Virus record (IMG/VR): IMGVR_UViG_3300033076_001578
Location: 4,173 to 68,172 of that record
From: a virus
Lineage: Duplodnaviria > Caudoviricetes
DNA length: 64,000 nt
Direction: 5' to 3' (one strand)
Below the pieces are notes generated by a model. That model saw only the letters and a list, made by a program, of their open reading frames with translations. It made no database searches and was not told where the DNA came from. This document shows, piece by piece, positions 42,091 through 54,206 of this stretch (the first letter of the stretch is position 1; every line of letters begins with the position of its first letter). A program made the translations under genes and the position numbers.

Positions 42091-42119
42091 AAAAGGCCCC
42101 GGCGGGGCTGCCGGGGCCT
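42091..42119 (-). terminator. Second (back-up) terminator for the late transcript
   Basis: AGGCCCCGGC-6nt-GCCGGGGCCT stem with AAAA on the + strand 5' side, giving a U-tract on the - strand. Confidence 0.7.
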
Positions 42120-42494: not shown

Positions 42495-42878
42495 TTACTG
42501 TCCCTTCCGCAGGAGGCCGGTGGCGGCGATCTTGACCTTCGCGTCTTCGATCGCCTGCATGACCTTCTGCAAGTAGTTGTTGGTGTCGGTGACGTCACCG
42601 CGCATGACGGCTTCGGCGGCGCCGATCGTCGAGCTCACGGCGGCGTCGGCCTTCGCCAGGTCGGCGAAGACGGCGCGGTCGTGGCAGAGCATCGGCGCGG
42701 GCTGCGGGCAGACCGGCAGTCGGCCGTAGCTGATGACGAGGGGCTGGTAGACGTCGCCGTAGGACTTGAGCGCGACCTTGACGGCCAGCTTGGCGTCGGA
42801 CGTGACGGCATTGTCGGGGAGGAAGGCGCAGCCGCCGGTCACCAGGACCAGCACTGCGGCGGCAAGTATTCGTTTCAT
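42495..42878 (-). CDS. Putative lipoprotein in the lysis cassette
   Basis: MKRILAAAVLVLVTGGC signal with a lipobox-like Cys. Confidence 0.7.
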   Translation of the reverse strand: MKRILAAAVLVLVTGGCAFLPDNAVTSDAKLAVKVALKSYGDVYQPLVISYGRLPVCPQPAPMLCHDRAVFADLAKADAAVSSTIGAAEAVMRGDVTDTNNYLQKVMQAIEDAKVKIAATGLLRKGQ

Positions 42879-42925
42879 GAACTTTCCCTTCATGGTACGC
42901 GCCAGGACCCGGGCGCGCGGCGGGA

Positions 42926-44108: not shown

Positions 44109-44636
44109 TTAGTAAGTCGTTGCGTTTTCGGGGCGGAGGCCCTTCGCGAGCTTCGCGGCGACCTTAGAGACGACCTCGCGCTTCTCGACGTCGCCGTCGC
44201 GGTCGAGGTCGAGCCCCCTGTTTTGGAGGTAGAGCTTCGGACGGTTCCCGCCCTGGGCGAACACGATCCAGTCGTCGGGTTTGCCGATCATGGCGGGCCA
44301 GAGGACGGCTCCGTAGACGTCGCCGAGACTCCGCAGGCGGCCGGACCAGGGGGCGAAGTACCGCTCGACGTAGGAAAGCTGGTGGACGGCATCCATCTTC
44401 GCGAGGAGCTCGGTCGTCGTCTTGAGGGAGAATGCCGTCTGCGGCATGAACTGGATCAACCCGACCGCGCCGGACCCGGCCGCGTTCTTGATCGACGGCG
44501 AGAACGTCTCGCCCGTCTCGAACGCCATAACGGTCATCAGCCAGGACGGGTCGGCGATCCGGACGCGGACGGCGACTCGGATCGCGGCCCGGGCGAAGGC
44601 GGGGGAGACGCGGGCACCCCATGCGAGGGTCGTCAT
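44109..44636 (-). CDS. Endolysin (lysozyme/transglycosylase fold)
   Basis: LMTVMAFETG.TFSP...N...GAVGLIQFMP, QL.YVERYF, D.DRDG motifs. Confidence 0.88.
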   Translation of the reverse strand: MTTLAWGARVSPAFARAAIRVAVRVRIADPSWLMTVMAFETGETFSPSIKNAAGSGAVGLIQFMPQTAFSLKTTTELLAKMDAVHQLSYVERYFAPWSGRLRSLGDVYGAVLWPAMIGKPDDWIVFAQGGNRPKLYLQNRGLDLDRDGDVEKREVVSKVAAKLAKGLRPENATTY

Positions 44637-45919
44637 AGGCTCGCGCTCACGGCGGTCAAGATCAGCTCGGCCAGCTTGGCCTTGCCTGCCGCATTGTGAT
44701 GAAGCCCGTCCGGCGGTCCGCCCGGGTAGTTTGCGTCGTAGATCGGGTTCAGATCGTCAAAGAACCCGGTCGAGGTCCGGACGACGCCCATCGCTTCGCG
44801 GAGGGGAACCCAGAGTGCGCCGTTCGACGCGCACCAGGCTTCCATGTTGTCGTTCAGCCCACGGTCGATCGCGACCTCGGAGTCGGACGCCGAGCTGTCC
44901 GGCATGATCTCGCAGACGACCATCGTGCATCCGGAGTTCAGTGCCGCTTTTGCTGCGGCCATGTGTCCCTGGATCGTCGACCAGGAGTTCGCGCGGTCGT
45001 TGACGCCGAGGAGGAAGACGCCGAAGCGCGGGGTGACGGCGGCGAGCGTAGGTGCCCTCGACGCGCCATAGGCCCAGCCCTGCCCGCCCATTCCCATATT
45101 CTGATACGTCAGGGTCGGGACCAGCTCGCGCATCTTGTAGCCGAGGTCGCCGGTCGGGTCGCCGGATATGCCGCCGTCGAACGCCGGGCGATAGAACGGC
45201 GTCCCGTGACAACCCAGGCTGTCCGTGATCATAACGAGGAAGGGCGGTGGTCCGAGCGGGCGAATGTCGACGGTGTAGTTCAGCGACTCGGTCGAGGCGG
45301 GGAGCGTGCTCAGATCGCCGCTGTCGTATCGCATGGATCCGTCGAGTATGGCTCTCACGCCGTTCCCGTTCAGTATCCACAGGCCCGCGGAATCGCCGGG
45401 CAGGCACGCGATCGGGGTCGCCAGGTTGTGCGTCAGCTTTACGGGAGGGCTGGCAACGGGCCACGTGTTGGTGAACACCGCGCCCTGGCCGGTTTGAACA
45501 AGGTCTGTCCCGCTCGGGCGGAACATTTTGAATTTCCAGTTGTTAGGGTCGAGGCCGAAGGCGTTGGGGACGTATTCGAACGCGGTGACGTAACCGTGCT
45601 GGCGCACGAGGTTTTTGGGCGTCGTATCGGCGAACGTACGACCGCTGCCACCGCCGCTGGCGGAAGACGTGGAATAGAATTCCAACGGGCCGCCCACCGG
45701 CACTTTGTCGTTGGCGTGCGCCGTGTCGAAGGAGCTGATGGCAGACGTCAGGGGCGTGTAGTCGGGCGTCTCGGGCGGCGGTTCCTCATCTTCGCATGCG
45801 GAATCCAGAAAAACAAAGTCGCCTGGCACGAGGGTTTTCAAGACGGTGGTACCGTCCTGATCGAGCAGCGTCTGGTTGCCACTGACGTTGTCGTTCTGGA
45901 TCTTGGTCCGCATGGTCAT
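44633..45919 (-). CDS. Tail-associated SGNH/GDSL esterase (putative O-acetylesterase)
   Basis: Blocks ITDSLG, NMGMGGQ, LGVND and DGLHHNAAG; beta-rich N-terminal domain; start ATG 45919 (ATGA overlap). Confidence 0.8.
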   Translation of the reverse strand: MTMRTKIQNDNVSGNQTLLDQDGTTVLKTLVPGDFVFLDSACEDEEPPPETPDYTPLTSAISSFDTAHANDKVPVGGPLEFYSTSSASGGGSGRTFADTTPKNLVRQHGYVTAFEYVPNAFGLDPNNWKFKMFRPSGTDLVQTGQGAVFTNTWPVASPPVKLTHNLATPIACLPGDSAGLWILNGNGVRAILDGSMRYDSGDLSTLPASTESLNYTVDIRPLGPPPFLVMITDSLGCHGTPFYRPAFDGGISGDPTGDLGYKMRELVPTLTYQNMGMGGQGWAYGASRAPTLAAVTPRFGVFLLGVNDRANSWSTIQGHMAAAKAALNSGCTMVVCEIMPDSSASDSEVAIDRGLNDNMEAWCASNGALWVPLREAMGVVRTSTGFFDDLNPIYDANYPGGPPDGLHHNAAGKAKLAELILTAVSASL

Positions 45920-46248
45920 TCGCCCCGCGAGGCTTTGGCGGCGTCTTCGGCGGCCTTGATGCGGGCGGCTTTCTTGGCCGAGAAGCTCGACTTGACGGCG
46001 GGCGTCCATACTTCATCAGCAATTTTGCCCGCGCGACCGGGAGGCTTGGTACCGCTGTCCGGCTCGTATGGAGCGCGGTGCGAAGTGCGGGACAGTTCTT
46101 TTCCGTCCTCGCTGATGATCGTGATGGTTTCGACGAAGATGCTTCCATCGGCTTCGACCTCGACGCGCTGTTCTTGCGTCTTGGTGATGGCGGCGACGGC
46201 GGGCGTGGCGAGCGCCAGCGCCAAGGCGATGAAGATGATGCGTTTCAT
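45916..46248 (-). CDS. Fibre-adjacent small protein with an N-terminal Sec signal peptide
   Basis: MKRIIFIALALALATPAVA, then AITK...IISEDGKELSRTSHR...VWTPAVK, a pattern typical of small proteins next to phage fibres. Confidence 0.8.
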   Translation of the reverse strand: MKRIIFIALALALATPAVAAITKTQEQRVEVEADGSIFVETITIISEDGKELSRTSHRAPYEPDSGTKPPGRAGKIADEVWTPAVKSSFSAKKAARIKAAEDAAKASRGE

Positions 46249-46261
46249 GTTTGGTTTCCTT

Positions 46262-47782
46262 TTACGGTGTCATGTAGGTGCAGGAGCCTTCAATGATGGC
46301 GTTGCCTGTCATCATCGCGGGAGTAACAAAAGCATAACCTGTTCCAGCGGCGCTGTTGGCGGACAGGCCGATGGTTGATGTCCCAGACACGGGGAACATG
46401 CCCAGCTGATAATAAGTACCGCCCAAGGTCCAGCCCTGCATGGTGCCCATCGAGCAGGCGCCAAGAGCGGATGACGTCGCTACCGGGTATGGAAGCGCAC
46501 CGATGTAAACCTGCGTCGCCATCGTTCCAGGACTGCCGCGCACCGACCATTGGATATAGACCAGATTGCCGGTCTTGATGTAACTGCCGTATTGAAAAAG
46601 GTATGACGTCCCGCTGCCTGTTGTGCCGACATAGGTCGGCGTCCATGAGCCGCTCGTCTGCGCGGGGACCGCACCACCGTCCTGAATGTTTCCGCTGGCG
46701 TCCCAGGTGGCGACGTTGCCGCTGGTCTTCGCACCAGCCGCGACGGAGGCGAACTCGGTGGTGTTGCCGCTGCGGGTGCCGACGGTGGGAGCCGCGCCCG
46801 CGCCGCCGCCGATCACCGGCAGGTTCGCGGTCAGGGCACCGGACGAGGCAATCGTTCCGCTGGCGGTAAATGCCAAGACGCCGCCGCTGGTGCCGGAAGT
46901 GATGCCAGTGCCGCCTTGCGCGACCGTCACCGCAGCGTTGTCGGTCAAGATCGCGGCGCTCGCGTTCGGGAGCGTGAAAGTCTTGGTGCTGGTCGTCGGG
47001 CCGGTAAAGGCCGTGAAGCCGTTCGCGGTCCCACCGTTCGCGGCAGGAAGGATTCCCGCGACGTCTGCCGTCAGACTGACCGAGGCGCAGGTCGCCACGC
47101 CCGAGGCGTTCAGGCTTCGAGGGAACTGGTTGGTGCAGAACGTCCCCGTGTAAGCCGACATTGCCGACGATCCGTTCCCGAGCACGAGCCCGGTGATCGT
47201 CGTCGCGCCCGTACCACCGTTCGCGACCGGAAGCGTCCCGGAGACGTCGGCGGTCAGGCTGACCGCGCCCCAGGTCGGGGCGCCGGACGCGTTGCCGTGC
47301 AGCACCGTCGACGAAGTCCCGAGCGACCCAAGCGTGACGGGAGCCGTTCCCGCGCCGCCGCCGAGGACGAGCTGGTTTCCGGCGAGCATCGCGGAGCTCG
47401 CGATGGTCGACGTCGAATTGAAATACAGGACGCCGCCGGATGATCCGGACGTCAATCCGGTACCCCCCTGCGTCGCGGCGGCCGTTCCGGAGATTAGCGA
47501 GAAGCTGTAGTCGCCGGACTGCGCCGTCACGGCTCCGGTTCGACCAAAGACGGACTGCGGAACCGCGTTCCCGTTGATGTACAGGTTCGACGCGTTGACC
47601 GTCCCGACGCCCTTCGATCCGCCGGTTACGCTCGACGGGGCAAGGATGCCGCCGAGGCTATACGATATACTGTCCCCGGACTTGACCCAGGGGTTCGGCT
47701 GCGGACCGGGGCCGGGCTGCGCGGAGGCGAACGTGATCGCCGCGATTGCTGTGAGGATCAGGGGGGCGAATATCTTTTTCAT
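46262..47782 (-). CDS. Tail fibre/receptor-binding-like protein with an N-terminal Sec signal peptide
   Basis: MKKIFAPLILTAIAAITFASA; repeated LPVANGGTG/GGTG motifs; C-terminal SGSWTPT...GSYIKTGNLV...LPYP...GSCTY fibre tip domain. Confidence 0.85.
   Translation of the reverse strand: MKKIFAPLILTAIAAITFASAQPGPGPQPNPWVKSGDSISYSLGGILAPSSVTGGSKGVGTVNASNLYINGNAVPQSVFGRTGAVTAQSGDYSFSLISGTAAATQGGTGLTSGSSGGVLYFNSTSTIASSAMLAGNQLVLGGGAGTAPVTLGSLGTSSTVLHGNASGAPTWGAVSLTADVSGTLPVANGGTGATTITGLVLGNGSSAMSAYTGTFCTNQFPRSLNASGVATCASVSLTADVAGILPAANGGTANGFTAFTGPTTSTKTFTLPNASAAILTDNAAVTVAQGGTGITSGTSGGVLAFTASGTIASSGALTANLPVIGGGAGAAPTVGTRSGNTTEFASVAAGAKTSGNVATWDASGNIQDGGAVPAQTSGSWTPTYVGTTGSGTSYLFQYGSYIKTGNLVYIQWSVRGSPGTMATQVYIGALPYPVATSSALGACSMGTMQGWTLGGTYYQLGMFPVSGTSTIGLSANSAAGTGYAFVTPAMMTGNAIIEGSCTYMTP
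46770..47480 (-). repeat. Internal protein repeats in the fibre gene
   Basis: GGTG[LI]TSG[ST]SGGVL.F....TIASS..L..N..V.GGGAG.AP occurs twice; VSLTADV[SA]G.LP.ANGGT occurs twice. Confidence 0.8.
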
Positions 47783-47783
47783 G

Positions 47784-48071
47784 TTACCAGCTCACTACGG
47801 AGAATACGTGGTTGCTGTCGAGCGCGTTGACGGTCGTCGGGGTCGTCTGGCCCGGGATGATGTTCCAGGACTGGCCCGGCGCGATGCCGAAGGTCGTCCC
47901 CTCGGCAGACGTTCCCGCGACGCCAACTGGATCGACGAAGAGGTAGCCGGACGCGCCCGGCGGGTTCGTTATGAAGCCGCCGTTCGGGTTCGCGCCGACG
48001 GCGGTGACGGCGGTCCCGGCCGTCACTACTTCGGACGCGTTCCCGGGGATCGGCGTGACGGGATCTGCCAT
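47784..48071 (-). CDS. Stand-alone paralog of the N-terminal domain of the 49265-50338 baseplate protein
   Basis: Shared GG.I.NP, LFV, GTTF.IAPGQS..I.PG.TT...VNA..S.H.FS. Confidence 0.8.
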   Translation of the reverse strand: MADPVTPIPGNASEVVTAGTAVTAVGANPNGGFITNPPGASGYLFVDPVGVAGTSAEGTTFGIAPGQSWNIIPGQTTPTTVNALDSNHVFSVVSW

Positions 48072-48072
48072 G

Positions 48073-48399
48073 TTACACCAGCACCGTCGCGGGCGCGACC
48101 TGGGACGCGATCTCAGCGGCGAGTCGCGCCTTGACGGCGTCGACGTCGAGGCGGTCAGTTACCCACTGCTCCAGGTCTTCGGCCGGGATGGCGTCGATGT
48201 CGCGGAACTCTTCCGGGTTCGGAAGGTCCAGCTTTACCTCGCCGCTGTCGAACGCGTGGCTCGATCCGTCGGTCGCGTCGATTCGCCAGAGGAGGCCGAC
48301 GAGGACGTTGGTCAGGGGAACGCCTTCGACGGTCATGGAAGGTGCGACGCGCTTCATACCGGCGGCAGACGGTCCGGTGAACTGAAAATTGATCGTCAT
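48073..48399 (-). CDS. Tail fibre assembly/associated protein
   Basis: V....W...ATDG......G...L..P..E.F.....I..E....WV pattern; directly after a fibre gene. Confidence 0.7.
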   Translation of the reverse strand: MTINFQFTGPSAAGMKRVAPSMTVEGVPLTNVLVGLLWRIDATDGSSHAFDSGEVKLDLPNPEEFRDIDAIPAEDLEQWVTDRLDVDAVKARLAAEIASQVAPATVLV

Positions 48400-48414
48400 A
48401 ACTTGTCCCTTTCG

Positions 48415-49236
48415 TTAAGCGTCGGTGGTGATGGTGGTATAGGCGCACGCCAGGCTGATCGGTCCGCCGCTCGTCTGGCGGACCTGGAGCTTGTTGCCGC
48501 TTATCTGGAACTCGATGGTGGTCGTGCCGGAGGCGGCAGGCGTACCCATGATGGCTATGACCGCGCTCGCGTTGTCCTTCGCCGCCGTGCAGACCGCGCG
48601 ACCGCCGCCACCACCTTGGCACCCGACGATGACGTCGTAGCGGTAGGTCCCGGTCCCGGGGGTGATCAGGTCGTACCAGGTCCCGCTGACGGCGTTCGTC
48701 AGGAAAAGGCGTTCGGACCTGTGTCCCAGGGGGATCGTCAGAATGCCGCTGATCAGGGTGGCGAGGTTGAGCGTTATCAGCGATGCGGTGGACCGCAGGA
48801 ACTCGACGCCGCCAGCGACGAGGCCGAGGATGTTCGTTCCGGGACGGTACAGGCCGGTGTCGAGGTCGTTGATGAACGCCGCGCCGGGAGCGCCGACGGT
48901 GCCGTCTTCGAAGAGTCCCGCGTCGCCTTGGAAGAACTCGCCGAGGGCGCCTGCCGTGATCAGTCCGTTGGCGCCGTCTCCCGCCGACCAGTTCTGCGCG
49001 GAGGTTCCTTCCTGCGCGCGGACAATGGTCAGGACGTCGCCGGACCGCCCCGTTACCTTCACGATCTCGTTCGTCAGGCCAGTCGCCGCGTCGGAGAAGG
49101 TGAGCATGAAGTAGTCGCTGCCCGTCGGGTTCGGGAAGCGCGCACCCGTTCCGGTCGCGAGCGTCGCGCTCGTCGCGACGTCGCTGATCGATGCCGCGAG
49201 GGTACTCAATGAATTATTGGCGAACAAGACGCTCAT
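48415..49236 (-). CDS. Short tail fibre protein (baseplate-attached)
   Basis: LFANN...LAASI, G..FP, EIVKVT.RSGD.LTIVRAQEGT.A..W.AGD anchor, and PG..F..D.DTG.YRPG.N.LG motif; start ATG 49236. Confidence 0.8.
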   Translation of the reverse strand: MSVLFANNSLSTLAASISDVATSATLATGTGARFPNPTGSDYFMLTFSDAATGLTNEIVKVTGRSGDVLTIVRAQEGTSAQNWSAGDGANGLITAGALGEFFQGDAGLFEDGTVGAPGAAFINDLDTGLYRPGTNILGLVAGGVEFLRSTASLITLNLATLISGILTIPLGHRSERLFLTNAVSGTWYDLITPGTGTYRYDVIVGCQGGGGGRAVCTAAKDNASAVIAIMGTPAASGTTTIEFQISGNKLQVRQTSGGPISLACAYTTITTDA

Positions 49237-49264: not shown

Positions 49265-50338
49265 TCAGCCGATCTCGACCGTGTAGTTAAACTGGAAGGG
49301 AAGCTCGAGGACACCGGCGTCGATGCCGGACTTCAAGATGACCGCGAAGGGAACGTATTGGCCCGGGGTATAGACCGTCCTGACGACGTTCGGCGCCGCG
49401 CCGTTGGGGTACGCCATGTTTGGGACGGCGCCCCCGGTTACTGTAACGAATCCCGGCGCGATCCGAATGGTGACGTCGTTGTCGCCGCTGAATCCGACGC
49501 TGACGATGCTCGTGTCCGCCGTCTGTCCAGGTCCGCCGTTCTCCCCGGTCAGGAAGCGCATGATCCTGCGCTTGAGCCACTTGACGGTAAACACCTTCCC
49601 GTCGCCCTTCCAGAGGTGCCAGGTCAGGCATCGCTTATAGACGTCGTCGGTCGTCACGTAGACGTTCTGATTCCCGATGACTAGAAGCTGGTTCGGGGTC
49701 AGGACGTTCGGCGCGAACGTGTTCAGCGGACCGATGTTTCGGTTCGACCCGCTCGGGAGGGACGGCCGCGGATATCCGTAGAGGCCCGCACCGATCCAGT
49801 CGAGGAGGTCGCCAAAGATCTGCGCGTTCTGCGCGTAGACCGGGAGGCTTATCTCCGCAAACCACGTCGCGTATTCCTGCGCCAATGCGTTGTAAGAATC
49901 GACGAACGCCTGGAGGTCTTCGTCGTCGTTGTACTCCTGGTAGAGGTACGACGGGATGATCTTTGTGAGGGTCGTCGGTCCAGACGGCGGGAACAGTCCG
50001 GTCGGCGCGGCGTACGGCACGGCGATGGAGCTGCCATATGCGCTGAACCTGTGACCAGACGTCGCCGCGTTGACGGACACGTTCGTCGTCGTACCTGGCG
50101 GGATCGTGAACGACTGACCAGGCGCGATGGCGAAGGTAGTGCCGTCCGGAGTAAGCGACGCGCTTCCGGCGATGCTGACGAACAGGTCTTCGGCGACGGC
50201 GATTCCCTGCGACGCGGCTTCGACGGGATTTTCGATGCGTCCGCCCGCCTCGAGCGGGCCATACATCGAGATCACGGGCGTTCCGCCGACCTTAACGACG
50301 GTCCTGGTGGCGGGATAGAGCCTGACGGGCGCTGTCAT
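49265..50338 (-). CDS. Baseplate wedge protein (DUF2612/gpI-like) with an extra N-terminal domain
   Basis: IIPSYLYQEY.DD.DLQAF, LDWIG..LYG..RP, TDDVYKR.LTW motifs; follows baseplate J. Confidence 0.8.
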   Translation of the reverse strand: MTAPVRLYPATRTVVKVGGTPVISMYGPLEAGGRIENPVEAASQGIAVAEDLFVSIAGSASLTPDGTTFAIAPGQSFTIPPGTTTNVSVNAATSGHRFSAYGSSIAVPYAAPTGLFPPSGPTTLTKIIPSYLYQEYNDDEDLQAFVDSYNALAQEYATWFAEISLPVYAQNAQIFGDLLDWIGAGLYGYPRPSLPSGSNRNIGPLNTFAPNVLTPNQLLVIGNQNVYVTTDDVYKRCLTWHLWKGDGKVFTVKWLKRRIMRFLTGENGGPGQTADTSIVSVGFSGDNDVTIRIAPGFVTVTGGAVPNMAYPNGAAPNVVRTVYTPGQYVPFAVILKSGIDAGVLELPFQFNYTVEIG

Positions 50339-50339
50339 A

Positions 50340-51755
50340 CTATCCTCGCGCGATGGTGATCGCGGCCGCGGTCGTCAGGAAGTAGCTCTCGGGATCGCCC
50401 TCGATGATGCCTGTACCTGCGTCCGGGGGAACGGCCACGCCATCGATGTTCACGGTGAACACCATCCGCGTCAACAGCGGCGGCGCCAGGACGCTCCTGA
50501 TCGCTTCGCTGAAGGTGCTCTGCAACTCGAAGAGGTTCATCGGCTGCCCGGCGAAGATCGAGTTGACGTACGCGGCGAGCGCGGGCGCCCCCAGCTGGGC
50601 GACGGCCGCGTCCGAGACGAAGTTCGGCGAGCTCGTGTTCCACAGCAGGTTGATGGTCACTTCCTGCTCCGGCGGATCGACGTACGGGATCAGGTAGGTG
50701 TCGGGCGGATCGCTGATGCTGACGACGATGTTTCGGTCGTTCGGCGTGACGACGCCGTCGCCCGTATAGTCAGGGGCGCCGGTCGAGTTGTAAGGGATCG
50801 AGAAGGACGTCGGGGAAATGACGGTGACCGTCCAGGTCCCGTTGATCCCGGTCATGCCTGTTGCCCCGGCGATGACGACGTCGTCCTGACCGTCGACGAA
50901 GCCGTGGTTCAGGTCGGTCGTCACGACGGCGGGGTTCGCCTTCGTAACGCCCGTCACGTTGATCGTCGAGCCGACGAGGTCGCTCAAGTCGAAGAGGGAG
51001 CGGAAGATCGCGTCGGCGACCGAATAAGGATCCCCGCCGCCGCATATGACTTCCCACCCGCCGGTCACCTGGCGCACGGAGATGAGTCGGCGCTGGACGC
51101 CTTCGATGTTTCCCAGGAGAGTCTTCAGGTAGCGGGTCGCCCCCTGGCTCACGGCCAGCTGCGCGTCGAGGACGCGGGCGCGGTAATCCTCCTCGGTCTC
51201 GCCGCCCGGGCGGCCGGGCGTGCCGGGCGACGGGTTCGTCACCGTCAGCGCGATCGGCGAAGGGACGGAGGTGATGATCTGGTTGACCGTTCCCGCCGGG
51301 ACCGACCACGTCCCCTGGACGGTAGCGACCGCGAACAGGGGGGCGGATTCGCCGCCGTCACCGATGATTCCTCCGTCCCGGATGACGTACTGGTACGTCC
51401 CGTCTGACACCGTGAATCCCGGGCTGATGACGTAGCCCGCGGGACCCTCGAAGACTTCGAACACGGACGTGTTCGTCGCGCCGCCAATTTCGACGCCGAA
51501 CTGCTGCCCCAGCTCGGAGAGCAGGAACGGGTTCGCGCCGTACGGCGTCAGCGAGTTGACGAGCTCGACCTGGGCCGAGTCGCAGACGACCAGAGCGCCG
51601 ACGTCCGTGCTCGAGATGTCCTCGATCAGCGACCCGGGAAGGTTCGCCGTGTAGCCGGGCCGGTCTGCCGCGACGCCCGCGAGGAGCCGCGTCCGCAGGG
51701 ACGCCGGTGATTGCGGGAGCAGTCCGGTGGGGGAGAATACGATGGGGAGGCTCAC
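50340..51755 (-). CDS. Baseplate J-like protein with an inserted beta-barrel module
   Basis: GSLIEDI, G.AGYVI..G..VSDG, GGETEEDYRARV motifs. Confidence 0.88.
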   Translation of the reverse strand: MSLPIVFSPTGLLPQSPASLRTRLLAGVAADRPGYTANLPGSLIEDISSTDVGALVVCDSAQVELVNSLTPYGANPFLLSELGQQFGVEIGGATNTSVFEVFEGPAGYVISPGFTVSDGTYQYVIRDGGIIGDGGESAPLFAVATVQGTWSVPAGTVNQIITSVPSPIALTVTNPSPGTPGRPGGETEEDYRARVLDAQLAVSQGATRYLKTLLGNIEGVQRRLISVRQVTGGWEVICGGGDPYSVADAIFRSLFDLSDLVGSTINVTGVTKANPAVVTTDLNHGFVDGQDDVVIAGATGMTGINGTWTVTVISPTSFSIPYNSTGAPDYTGDGVVTPNDRNIVVSISDPPDTYLIPYVDPPEQEVTINLLWNTSSPNFVSDAAVAQLGAPALAAYVNSIFAGQPMNLFELQSTFSEAIRSVLAPPLLTRMVFTVNIDGVAVPPDAGTGIIEGDPESYFLTTAAAITIARG

Positions 51756-52779: not shown

Positions 52780-53724
52780 TTATGCCGCCGCTTCCACGGG
52801 CTTGGTCGAGTACGCGTCGACGACCGTGACCCACGACGCCGCGTCGGCCTGCCGGAAGTTGCCGACGTGGCGAACCTGGCTGATCTGGAACACCCCCTGG
52901 AACGTCGCCTTCGCGTTGATGAACGGCGACGTCGTCCCCGGACCAGTCGTGACGAGCGCCGGTGGGAACTTGATGAAGTCTCCCACCTTGAGGTCGGATC
53001 GCATGGCGAACTTGGTCTGGACCGACAAGGGATCGATCCACGTCGGCTGGCCGATCATGTCCCTGAAGACGATCTCGATCGGGTTGGATTCGACGGAGCC
53101 GTCGTAGACCGTGAGAGTCTTGTCGGAGAGCGCGATGTCGACGCCGGGGTAGGCGTCGGCGTTGACGATCGAGCGGCTGACGTCCTTCACGTACTGCGCG
53201 AACTGCGTGAGCGTTCCGTAGAAGCCGACTTCGTCGGCCGGGAGTACCAGCTTTTCGTCGATCTTCACGTCGACGTCGAAGTCCGGGAAGGCGGTAGTCA
53301 GCGTTGACCGGACAGCGTCCGAGAGCTTCGTATCCTTCTTCCAGTTTAGGACGATGTTCTTCGGATCTTCCGTCGACCCCGTCCCGGGGTAAATGATCAA
53401 GTCGAGCGACTGCTCGGTCCCGATCCAGTTGCCGAAGGCTTGGAAGACGTCGCCCTTGACGAGGAGTCCCGCCTGCGAGGGGTTCGCCAGGGGGAGTCCC
53501 TTCTGGAATCCGCCGTAGACCTCGATGGGCTTATTGTTGAGGTCCGATGCCTGGCTGATCTCCTGAAGCGACACGCCCCAGATCTTGACGATGGCTGCGC
53601 CGGACGGCGTCGCGAATGCAAAGACGGGGATGTCCATCTCGATGTTCAGTGCGCCCGGGATGTTCTTGCCGCCCGCATAGCTGGTGTATGTCTTTCCGCC
53701 GACGACGACCTTGTAGTACCTCAC
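52780..53724 (-). CDS. Baseplate hub protein (gpD/gp27-like)
   Basis: Start GTG 53724 (MRYYKVVVG...); IWGV, G..FQ..GNW.G, DMIGQPTW, A...W.T motifs. Confidence 0.8.
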   Translation of the reverse strand: MRYYKVVVGGKTYTSYAGGKNIPGALNIEMDIPVFAFATPSGAAIVKIWGVSLQEISQASDLNNKPIEVYGGFQKGLPLANPSQAGLLVKGDVFQAFGNWIGTEQSLDLIIYPGTGSTEDPKNIVLNWKKDTKLSDAVRSTLTTAFPDFDVDVKIDEKLVLPADEVGFYGTLTQFAQYVKDVSRSIVNADAYPGVDIALSDKTLTVYDGSVESNPIEIVFRDMIGQPTWIDPLSVQTKFAMRSDLKVGDFIKFPPALVTTGPGTTSPFINAKATFQGVFQISQVRHVGNFRQADAASWVTVVDAYSTKPVEAAA

Positions 53725-54206
53725 GGGCGGACCTCGAACTGGCGGTTCGGTGTGCGGTAGACGAGCGACGAGTTGAAGTAGCCACCGGCGAGGTTGGTGT
53801 TGCGGAAGGCGCTCCCGGGAACGACGGTCGGACCGGGATCGACCGACAGCGGGAAGGTGAACGTGTATGCGTCGACGACGAGGACGTCGTGCGTCCCGTT
53901 GTAGGCGTCCGGGTTGGCGCCGGAGATCACGATCCGGACGGTCTGCCCCGGCGCGTAGCCGTGCCGGTCCGCGAACGTGGCCGTCGCCACGCCCGCTTCC
54001 CAGGAAATGTCCTCGATCGTGATGCCAGCCGGTGACCCGACCATCGCGCGCGTGAAGACGCGCGTCCCGTCGAGCCTGTAGCACGAGATCAGGTAGCGCC
54101 GACCAAAGAGTATCCACGTCACGACGCACGTGTAAACCTGTCCGTCGAGCGTCGGTTGGAACTCGAACGGCGCGACATTCGATGGAGCGAAGTCGAACGT
54201 GGTCAC
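53721..54206 (-). CDS. Baseplate/tail protein with an inserted beta-barrel module
   Basis: PF.FQ.TLDG..Y...V.W..FG.RY scaffold interrupted by HG..PG.V.I.GA.P..YNG. Confidence 0.75.
   Translation of the reverse strand: MTTFDFAPSNVAPFEFQPTLDGQVYTCVVTWILFGRRYLISCYRLDGTRVFTRAMVGSPAGITIEDISWEAGVATATFADRHGYAPGQTVRIVISGANPDAYNGTHDVLVVDAYTFTFPLSVDPGPTVVPGSAFRNTNLAGGYFNSSLVYRTPNRQFEVRP

What the first reader, a model, noticed from the sequence alone, without database searches (positions are those of the whole stretch)
45916..47782. Tail-fibre-like protein and its partner both carry Sec signal peptides
Seen: MKKIFAPLILTAIAAITFASA|Q and MKRIIFIALALALATPAVA|A, each with basic n-region, hydrophobic core and AxA site. 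The mature parts look like a trimeric fibre with a WTP...GSY.K.GNLV tip domain and the small protein that usually follows such fibres. Known: tailed-phage virions assemble in the cytoplasm and fibres normally lack export signals. A conventional fibre/chaperone pair without signals already exists at 48073-49236. Inference: an exported fibre system, either added to virions from the periplasm at lysis, or released as a receptor-blocking decoy or adhesin. This is the best candidate for an undescribed system in the window.
Basis: partly seen in the sequence, partly recalled or inferred. Interest (0 to 1): 0.85.

Follow-up and report, generated by a model that had tools for sequence, protein, structure and literature searches.

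The report
Exported phage tail fibre and partner
A 68-kb bacteriophage encodes a second tail-fibre-like protein and its small helper protein that both start with bacterial export signals, so this fibre probably matures outside the cytoplasm, which is not how tailed phages are known to build their parts.

Summary
Genes 46262-47782 (506 aa) and 45916-46248 (110 aa) lie on the minus strand, inside the late operon of a complete 68-kb myovirus-type phage. Both start with textbook Sec signals (ASA|Q and AVA|A).

Three indirect tests support real export:
- About two thirds of the fibre's homologs carry such signals.
- Signal-bearing homologs almost always have an even number of cysteines (71/78), against 18/36 without a signal. 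The tip's cysteine pair also tracks the signal.
- The small protein belongs to a family that follows a fibre with this same tip domain in 76 of 76 viral contigs. All 79 of those relatives start Met-AITKETQ with no signal. Here the signal sits exactly in front of AITKTQ.

So a conserved fibre-tip plus partner cassette was moved to the periplasm as a pair.

What the exported fibre does next is not shown. I favour a second host-recognition fibre that meets the particle at lysis (about 0.4). A free envelope or surface lectin is the main rival.

This scan has noted signal-bearing phage fibres before on other DNA. I found no published description for tailed phages.

The parts
46262..47782 (-). Gene for the 506-aa signal-bearing fibre-like protein
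   Evidence: ORF. No Pfam or PHROG hit for the whole protein. 3129 homologs, mostly through the shaft repeats.
47720..47782 (-). Sec-type signal peptide of the fibre (residues 1-21, predicted cut ASA|Q)
   Evidence: Sequence. Kept with one conservative change in P0002, and kept in P0004, P0023 and P0042. 78 of 114 full-length homologs have such an N-terminus. Gln is the first polar residue after the hydrophobic core in 55/79.
47543..47719 (-). Conserved mature N-terminal domain (about residues 22-80)
   Evidence: Nearly invariant among the five closest homologs while their shafts and tips differ (alignment A3). No similarity to the baseplate-anchor domain of the conventional fibre or of PdC23 gp23/gp24. 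Atlas look-alikes are all below 0.9.
46670..47542 (-). Gly/Thr/Ser-rich shaft with GGTG-type repeats
   Evidence: Shared with thousands of phage fibres and with giant signal-bearing proteins of bacterial MAGs.
47087..47137 (-). Shaft cysteine pair C216...C232 (motif C.NQF...C)
   Evidence: The motif is present in 36 signal-bearing homologs. Among signal-less ones it occurs once, in a truncated entry.
46265..46669 (-). C-terminal tip domain (residues 372-506) with cysteine pair C443/C501
   Evidence: 352 representative homologs, always C-terminal. AlphaFold model of the tip region (residues 355-506) has pLDDT 91 and is an all-beta sandwich. It resembles the Det7 tailspike gp208 C-domain (TM 0.64) and receptor-binding-protein (RBP) heads, and many annotated phage tail fibres (TM 0.7-0.8). 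The cysteine pair co-occurs with a signal peptide: 10/11 against 7/139.
45916..46248 (-). Gene for the 110-aa signal-bearing small partner
   Evidence: ORF. Weak phrog_6228 hit. One close homolog, P0123, at 81% identity, keeps the signal.
46192..46248 (-). Signal peptide of the small partner (residues 1-19, predicted cut AVA|A)
   Evidence: The mature part starts AITKTQEQ and aligns from its first residue with Met-AITKETQ of pelagiphage proteins (E 2e-13). 79/79 IMG/VR homologs have no N-terminal extension.
45919..46191 (-). Mature small partner: three-stranded beta meander plus long helix
   Evidence: Model pLDDT 83. No informative fold match. Homologs sit 17-53 nt (one at 446 nt) downstream of a tip-family domain in 76/76 viral contigs, and in Pelagibacter phages HTVC142P and Kolga.
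47784..48071 (-). 95-aa protein, free-standing copy of the N-terminal domain of the 357-aa baseplate protein; no signal
   Evidence: 42% identity over 99 residues, E 2e-14. Its stop lies 1 nt before the fibre's ATG. A role as docking site is conjecture.
49265..50338 (-). Baseplate protein: DUF2612/phrog_8212 body plus an extra N-terminal domain of about 120 residues
   Evidence: phrog_8212 over residues 124-356. The PdC23 homolog gp22 (236 aa) lacks the extra domain.
48415..49236 (-). Conventional tail fibre without signal (context)
   Evidence: N-terminus matches phrog_8469/6427 'tail fiber protein'. It is 49-53% identical to the shared anchor domain of PdC23 gp23 and gp24.
48073..48399 (-). 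DUF7936 protein that follows the conventional fibre (context)
   Evidence: Pfam E 3e-9. No similarity to the small partner.
44633..45919 (-). SGNH/GDSL-type hydrolase (428 aa from the ATGA start), no signal, translationally coupled to the small partner
   Evidence: Lipase_GDSL_2 match below the curated cut-off. phrog_6102, weak. ATGA overlap. No informative solved relative; the one hit, to a designed repeat protein at E 0.001, is uninformative.

Best explanation
Both proteins are made late, from the structural operon, and are sent through the inner membrane by Sec. Signal peptidase I cuts them at ASA|Q and AVA|A.

In the periplasm the fibre forms two disulfides (C216-C232 in the shaft, C443-C501 in the tip). 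It folds, presumably as a trimer, with the help of its co-exported small partner. That partner is the cognate downstream partner of this tip family.

The pair is a relocated version of an ordinary two-gene cassette, fibre tip plus partner, which in other phages works in the cytoplasm.

Most likely next step (inferred, about 4 in 10): the oxidised fibre is this phage's second host-recognition fibre. It occupies the slot where relatives encode a second, signal-less fibre. It meets the cytoplasm-built particle only when the holin opens the inner membrane, and docks by its own conserved N-domain rather than by the usual anchor domain. A possible docking site is the extra domain that this phage alone carries on its DUF2612 baseplate protein and as a free 95-aa copy.

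Basis of each step:
- From sequence: the signals, the cassette, the cysteine pattern, the operon position.
- Inferred: export, cleavage, disulfides, trimer, docking.

The confidence given (0.4) is for the whole chain, including the virion step. For export of the pair alone I put about 0.8.
For: Signals and starts:
- Canonical n/h/c regions. Start codons are supported by ribosome sites and coupling. No internal promoter or terminator.
- The signals are kept in the nearest relatives P0002, P0004, P0023, P0042 and P0123, with only hydrophobic substitutions.
- 78/114 full-length homologs are signal-like. Gln follows the core in 55/79.

Cysteines:
- An even cysteine count occurs in 71/78 signal-bearing homologs against 18/36 signal-less ones.
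- The shaft motif C.NQF...C occurs in 36 signal-bearing homologs against 1 signal-less one.
- The tip cysteine pair occurs in 10/11 signal-bearing members against 7/139 signal-less ones.

Partner:
- The mature N-terminus AITK... equals the N-terminus of 79/79 signal-less homologs.
- 76/76 of these follow a tip-family domain.
- So both members of the cassette gained signals here.

Virion-fibre reading:
- The gene sits in the fibre module, where the cultured relative PdC23 has a second fibre, gp24.
- The tip is the common tip of annotated virion fibres.
- The tip differs from that of fibre 1, as expected for a second specificity.
- The N-domain is conserved while tips are swapped among relatives.
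- Other phage contigs have only signal-bearing fibre candidates between ejection proteins and lysis genes (L140).
Against: - No trained signal predictor and no experiment.
- The cysteine statistics count related sequences, so the p-values overstate independence.
- The fibre lacks the anchor domain that both PdC23 fibres and this phage's fibre 1 use.
- The particle already has a conventional fibre.
- No route from periplasm to virion is documented for tailed phages. Three literature searches found none.
- Short 'signal plus tip only' proteins of about 160 aa exist (P0129, P0132, P0229). They have no shaft or anchor, which shows that exported tips can work without a fibre body.
- The relative L296 has no such gene.
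Confidence: 0.4

Rival explanations
1. The pair is exported as above, but the fibre never joins the particle. It acts as a free lectin-like trimer in the periplasm, on the cell surface, or released at lysis. It could mask a receptor so that progeny are not lost on debris or on lysing sister cells, or it could stick cells or debris together.
For: - The same export evidence applies.
- The particle already has a conventional fibre, and the exported one lacks the anchor domain.
- 'Signal plus tip only' proteins exist.
- Secreted fibre adhesins with a signal, a conserved N-domain and variable tips are known in Bdellovibrio (MAT family, PMC10769870).
- The shaft repeats recur in giant signal-bearing proteins of bacterial MAGs.
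Against: - The tip is unrelated to the tip of the phage's own fibre, so it cannot mask that receptor.
- Expression from the late structural operon is late for exclusion.
- A Sec signal alone leaves the protein in the periplasm, away from surface receptors.
- The cassette it derives from is a virion-fibre cassette in pelagiphages.
Confidence: 0.3
2. An envelope-directed lysis or exit accessory. The exported lectin-like fibre binds an envelope polymer (O-antigen, capsule, S-layer anchor or peptidoglycan) from the periplasmic side. It works with the adjacent SGNH esterase and the lysis cassette to free progeny.
For: Gene order is fibre, partner, SGNH hydrolase (ATGA-coupled), endolysin, holin, spanins.
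Against: - The SGNH protein has no signal and only a sub-threshold family match.
- Relatives have the same fibre-then-lysis order without any exported protein.
- Swapping of tips among close relatives fits receptor tracking better than a housekeeping lysis role.
Confidence: 0.1
3. Not exported. The hydrophobic N-termini are uncleaved membrane tethers or structural helices, or the annotated starts are wrong, and the fibre assembles in the cytoplasm like any other.
For: - No predictor or experiment was run.
- Phage proteins can form disulfides after release.
- A few signal-less tip homologs also have the cysteine pair (7/139).
Against: - AxA|Q geometry and positive n-regions are present in both proteins.
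- The signals are conserved by physicochemistry, not by sequence, across very diverged homologs.
- There are strong links between signal and even cysteine count, and between signal and cysteine pairs.
- The partner's extension ends exactly where 79 signal-less homologs begin.
- No alternative start with a ribosome site lies just downstream.
Confidence: 0.1

Closest known systems
Pelagiphage tail-fibre tip plus small downstream protein (Pelagibacter phage HTVC142P gp36/gp37; Kolga gp18/gp19; phrog_6228)
   Same: The same tip domain family sits at the fibre's C-terminus (hmmsearch E 8e-19 and 4e-21). The same small protein is encoded directly downstream (40% identity, E 2e-13). This gene order holds in 76/76 viral contigs.
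   Different: Neither pelagiphage protein has a signal peptide. The fibres there carry ordinary virion N-termini. The tip cysteine pair is mostly absent from signal-less members. The function of the small protein is unknown in both cases.
Bdellovibrio bacteriovorus MAT (mosaic adhesive trimer) fibres (Caulton et al. 2024, PMC10769870)
   Same: A signal peptide is followed by a conserved N-domain, a phage-like fibre body and swapped adhesive tips. Some end in an S74 chaperone, as does the close homolog P0004. One MAT tip holds a disulfide.
   Different: MATs are bacterial chromosomal genes shown on the predator's surface. This gene lies in a lytic phage's late operon. The MAT N-domain is about 130 aa; ours is about 60 aa. 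Matches to Bdellovibrionota or Oligoflexia MAG proteins cover only the shaft (residues 95-363). I did not compare directly with named MAT sequences.
Second tail fibre of Certevirus-type myophages (Pantoea phage PdC23 gp24)
   Same: Same position in a syntenic module: baseplate J, DUF2612, fibre 1, fibre 2, small genes, lysozyme, holin, spanins.
   Different: PdC23 gp24 shares the anchor N-domain with gp23 and has no signal. The protein here has a signal and an unrelated N-domain.
Receptor-masking lipoproteins of phages (T5 Llp, phi80/HK022 Cor), from general knowledge
   Same: Phage-encoded, exported, and act on the envelope of the infected cell.
   Different: Those are small lipoproteins with a lipobox and are not fibre-like. 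There is no lipobox here. This is a 506-aa fibre with a receptor-binding-type tip, encoded in the late operon.
Signal peptides on Porphyromonas phage genes (Matrishin et al. 2023, PMC10367356)
   Same: Signal peptides on phage genes, several predicted to expose an N-terminal Gln after cleavage. Gln at +1 is also the rule here.
   Different: That paper names capsid proteins, spanins and proteins of unknown function. 'Tail fiber' does not occur in its text.

Membership tests
Sec/signal peptidase I (type I) signal peptide | Positively charged n-region, uncharged hydrophobic h-region of about 10-18 residues, small residues at -3 and -1 | tested here: met
   Fibre: MKK + 18 uncharged residues ending in ASA|Q. 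Partner: MKR + core ending in AVA|A.
Sec/signal peptidase I (type I) signal peptide | Call by a trained predictor (SignalP 6) and experimental cleavage or export | not testable with these tools
   No such predictor or assay was available. The calls rest on my own rule.
Sec/signal peptidase I (type I) signal peptide | Marks of life in an oxidising compartment (paired cysteines) that track the signal among homologs | tested here: met
   An even cysteine count occurs in 71/78 signal-bearing homologs against 18/36 signal-less ones. The tip pair occurs in 10/11 against 7/139. The sequences are related, so the p-values are generous.
Lipoprotein (type II) signal peptide | Lipobox with Cys at +1 | tested here: not met
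   There is no Cys near either cleavage region. The LPAM_1 hit of the partner has E 0.2, below the cut-off.
Phage tail-fibre tip domain family (WTPT...G.Y.K.G.LV; Det7 gp208 C-domain-like) | Sequence match as a C-terminal domain, and a beta-sandwich fold like solved or annotated fibre tips | tested here: met
   352 representative hits, all C-terminal. The family profile matches PDB 6f7k at E 5e-9. The model has pLDDT 91. TM 0.64 to 6f7k, and 0.7-0.8 to annotated tail fibres.
Phage tail-fibre tip domain family | Homotrimer | not testable with these tools
phrog_6228 small protein that follows tip-bearing fibres | Sequence match, and position directly downstream of a tip-family domain | tested here: met
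   phrog_6228 E 1.2e-5. BLASTP E 2e-13. 76/76 synteny. Here the gap to the fibre's stop is 10 nt.
Certevirus-type virion fibre (PdC23 gp23/gp24) | Shared N-terminal baseplate-anchor domain | tested here: not met
   Only the conventional fibre 48415-49236 matches (49-53% identity). The 506-aa protein gives no hit.
Bdellovibrio MAT fibres | Signal peptide followed by the family's conserved beta-rich N-domain of about 130 aa | tested here: inconclusive
   A signal is present. The N-domain here is shorter. Matches to Bdellovibrionota or Oligoflexia MAG proteins cover the shaft only. Named MAT sequences were not compared.
Moron (independently transcribed accessory gene) | Own promoter and terminator, set apart from neighbouring genes | tested here: not met
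   The gaps are 1 nt and 10 nt, and there is an ATGA overlap. No promoter-like or terminator-like site lies on this strand.

The most novel reading that the evidence does not exclude
A tailed phage finishes its virion across two compartments. The distal host-recognition fibre and its folding partner are Sec-exported and oxidised in the periplasm. They dock on cytoplasm-built particles only in the short interval after the holin has opened the inner membrane. The same logic would explain the many uncultured phages in which all outer tail parts carry signals.
Probability: 0.3. Interest if true: 0.9.

Novelty: new variant of a known kind. Interest (0 to 1): 0.72.

Why it matters
Textbook assembly of tailed phages is wholly cytoplasmic. 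Here a fibre and its dedicated partner carry coordinated export signals and signal-linked cysteine pairs. That would mean part of the host-recognition apparatus, or a fibre-derived secreted lectin, is made in the periplasm.

- It would add a new step to phage morphogenesis, or a new class of phage-encoded envelope factors.
- It would explain why many metagenomic 'tail fibres' look secreted.
- It matters for expressing such receptor-binding proteins: they may need oxidative folding and their partner.

This case is unusually testable, because signal-less versions of the same two-gene cassette exist in cultured pelagiphages as natural controls.

Tried and rejected
- The look-up of encoding contigs, so the contigs of the closest homologs P0002, P0042 and P0123 could not be read.
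- Complex prediction, so neither the trimer, nor tip with partner, nor the 95-aa domain with the fibre N-domain was tested.
- The look-up of sequencing runs, so habitat and expression are unknown.

Searches that found nothing:
- tblastn of the whole fibre against cultured phages: no match.
- Word-based search with the tip alone: only itself.
- Metagenome scan for the conserved N-domain.
- Viral scans with P0042 and P0129. The scan with P0156 hit only a short common motif.
- The alignment of 25 homologs was too diverse for a genome scan.

Contexts of other signal-bearing homologs (L002, L007, L077, L118, L137, L140) share no other gene with this phage. They therefore gave no synteny.

Other negative results:
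- The partner shows no similarity to DUF7936 and no informative fold match.
- The atlas search of the N-domain gave only sub-threshold leads.
- The SGNH protein has no informative solved relative.
- The decoy idea 'same tip as the virion fibre' is rejected, because the two tips are unrelated.
- A moron with its own promoter is rejected.
- Literature: three searches and three papers checked found no tailed-phage fibre described with a signal peptide.
Full report
**What the window is.** It covers 64 kb of a 68,172-bp IMG/VR virus record that CheckV rates complete. The phage encodes its own DNA polymerase, primase, helicases, ribonucleotide reductase and thymidylate synthase. It also has a structural module with portal, terminase, tape measure, baseplate hub and baseplate J. 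Its capsid protein is 57-58% identical to those of cultured myoviruses of Yersinia, Klebsiella and Pantoea.

The late genes run on the minus strand from about 64 kb down to a strong terminator at 42094-42119. The order is:
- baseplate J (50340-51755)
- a DUF2612/phrog_8212 protein with an extra N-terminal domain (49265-50338)
- a conventional fibre (48415-49236)
- DUF7936 (48073-48399)
- a 95-aa protein (47784-48071)
- the 506-aa protein (46262-47782)
- the 110-aa protein (45916-46248)
- an SGNH-type hydrolase
- an SLT-like endolysin, a holin and spanins

Both proteins start with a basic n-region, an uncharged hydrophobic core and an AxA site: ASA|Q in the fibre and AVA|A in the small protein.

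The starts are credible. The fibre's ATG lies 1 nt after the upstream stop. The small gene has AAGGAA 8 nt before its ATG. Its stop overlaps the next start as ATGA. There is no room for, and no sign of, a separate promoter or terminator. So these are late-operon genes, not morons.

Among likely coding ORFs of the window, my crude rule flags only these two, the holin, one membrane protein and a lipoprotein.

**Test 1: conservation of the signal.** The fibre has 3129 homologs, mostly through its Gly/Thr/Ser-rich shaft. Of the 114 full-length proteins among the best 120, 78 have a signal-like N-terminus, with very different sequences but the same physicochemistry. In 55 of 79 the first polar residue after the core is Gln.

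The four closest relatives (P0002, P0004, P0023, P0042) share the signal and a nearly invariant mature N-domain of about 60 residues. Their shafts and tips differ. The only close homolog of the small protein, P0123 (81% identity), keeps its signal with hydrophobic substitutions.

In IMG/VR, by contrast, most proteins that share the shaft have ordinary fibre N-termini. So the signal is a property of a subset, not of the repeat.

**Test 2: cysteines.** The fibre has four cysteines: 216 and 232 in the shaft, 443 and 501 in the tip.
- Signal-bearing homologs have an even cysteine count in 71 of 78 cases, with a mode of four. Signal-less ones do in 18 of 36, with a mode of one.
- The shaft motif C.NQF...C occurs in 36 signal-bearing homologs and in one signal-less entry, which is truncated.
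- In the separate family defined by the tip, the two tip cysteines co-occur in 10 of 11 signal-bearing members and in 7 of 139 others.

The sequences are related, so the formal p-values are too small. But the pattern appears in two different domain families. This is what disulfide formation in the periplasm predicts.

**Test 3: the partner.** The tip (residues 372-506) belongs to a large family that always forms the C-terminus of phage fibre-like proteins (352 representatives).
- A model of the tip region (residues 355-506) is confident (pLDDT 91).
- It resembles the C-terminal domain of the Det7 tailspike gp208 and receptor-binding heads.
- It also resembles the tips of many annotated tail fibres.

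The small protein matches phrog_6228 weakly and a pelagiphage protein clearly (E 2e-13). In Pelagibacter phages HTVC142P and Kolga, that protein is encoded directly after a fibre that ends in the same tip family.

A scan of IMG/VR returned the best 80 of 114 confirmed homologous loci.
- All 79 with a readable start begin Met-AITKETQ or a near variant, with no extension.
- All 76 with enough upstream sequence have a tip-family domain just upstream. The gap is 17-53 nt in 75 of them.

In our phage the predicted mature partner begins AITKTQEQ. The signal has therefore been placed exactly in front of the family's normal N-terminus. A conserved two-gene cassette has acquired signals on both members. 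This makes sense only if both must work in the same new compartment.

**What I conclude with fair confidence (about 0.8).** Both proteins are exported by Sec and cleaved. The fibre folds and is oxidised in the periplasm, with its partner present.

**What remains open is the fate of the fibre.**

For a virion role:
- The gene sits where the cultured relative PdC23 encodes its second fibre, in an otherwise syntenic module.
- The tip is a standard virion-fibre tip and differs from the tip of fibre 1.
- Relatives keep the N-domain and swap tips.
- Some phage contigs have only signal-bearing fibre candidates between ejection proteins and lysis genes (L140).
- This phage also has two matching novelties: an extra domain on the DUF2612 baseplate protein, which PdC23 lacks, and a free 95-aa copy of it just upstream of the exported fibre. 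They could be a docking site, but this is conjecture.
- From general knowledge, canonical holins make very large lesions in the inner membrane before the outer membrane fails. That would let particles and periplasmic fibres mix at high concentration. T4 fibres are known to attach to fibreless particles in vitro.

Against a virion role:
- The fibre lacks the anchor domain used by fibre 1 and by both PdC23 fibres.
- The particle already has a fibre.
- Short 'signal plus tip' proteins without shaft or anchor exist.
- No such assembly route is described.

**Rivals.**
- A free exported lectin-like trimer for masking or adhesion (0.3). The Bdellovibrio MAT fibres are the closest described analogue. 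The simple decoy version fails, because the two tips of this phage are unrelated.
- An envelope-directed lysis accessory acting with the SGNH hydrolase (0.1).
- No export at all (0.1).

**Relation to earlier notes of this scan.** Signal-bearing phage fibres and nozzles were reported before on other genomes, mostly short-tailed phages. Later checks kept the observation and priced the 'virion parts are exported' reading at 6-30%.

This case adds three things:
- a myovirus that has a conventional fibre as well
- the link between the signal and cysteine pairs in two domain families
- the relocated fibre-plus-partner cassette, with 79 signal-less natural controls

**Limits.** The contigs of the closest relatives were therefore not seen, and no binding or trimer claim was tested.

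Noticed in passing
window 42495-42893 (-): A 132-aa ORF starts MKGKFMKRILAAAVLVLVTGGC, a lipoprotein-type signal with a lipobox. It is the last gene before the late-operon terminator and lies apart from the spanin pair. It could be a receptor-masking or exclusion lipoprotein.
   Followed up: no
window 47784-48071 and 49265-50338 (-): The 95-aa ORF is a paralog (42% identity over 99 residues) of the extra N-terminal domain of the DUF2612 baseplate protein. The cultured relative PdC23 has DUF2612 without this domain.
   Followed up: partly
L140:7936-18088 (JADMIO010828223.1, 50-kb metagenome contig): Five consecutive proteins start with signal-like N-termini. They include one of 1221 aa and one of 1382 aa. 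They lie between an ejection-protein homolog (phrog_2534) and what looked by eye like an endolysin and a holin.
   Followed up: partly
L077:3948-6781 (IMG/VR contig, 62 kb): A 754-aa signal-bearing fibre homolog is followed by two small ORFs (105 and 87 aa) that also start with signal-like N-termini. This echoes the fibre-plus-small-partner layout here. The small ORFs were not compared with the 110-aa protein.
   Followed up: no
proteins P0129, P0132, P0229 (160-167 aa): These are minimal proteins: a signal peptide, a short Gly-rich linker and the tip domain with its cysteine pair, but no shaft or anchor. Their genomic context could not be read.
   Followed up: no
homologs of the 506-aa protein: Gln is the first polar residue after the hydrophobic core in 55 of 79 signal-bearing homologs (small residue then Gln in 46). 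The mature proteins would mostly start with Gln, which can cyclise to pyroglutamate.
   Followed up: partly
window 44109-44636 and 52780-54129 (-): The endolysin in the lysis cassette matches the C-terminal part of the 'baseplate hub' family phrog_196 (positions 385-533). The 449-aa baseplate protein matches its N-terminal part (87-363). So the hub-lysozyme seems split between tail and lysis modules, as is annotated in PdC23.
   Followed up: no
L190:5201-7612 and L214:5224-6969 (Pelagibacter phages HTVC142P and Kolga): In pelagiphages the small partner gene is followed by a second large protein with a conserved N-terminus (M..AR.KANIP.LNFSSTGIDDNA). The small protein therefore sits between two fibre-like genes and might link them rather than act as a chaperone.
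   Followed up: no
L087-L109 (bacterial MAG contigs): The same shaft repeats occur in giant (1000-3600 aa) signal-bearing proteins of Elusimicrobia, Saccharibacteria, Oligoflexia/Bdellovibrionota, Bacteroidota and Acidobacteriota MAGs. Several have an N-terminal '..NYQGRL' type domain.
   Followed up: partly
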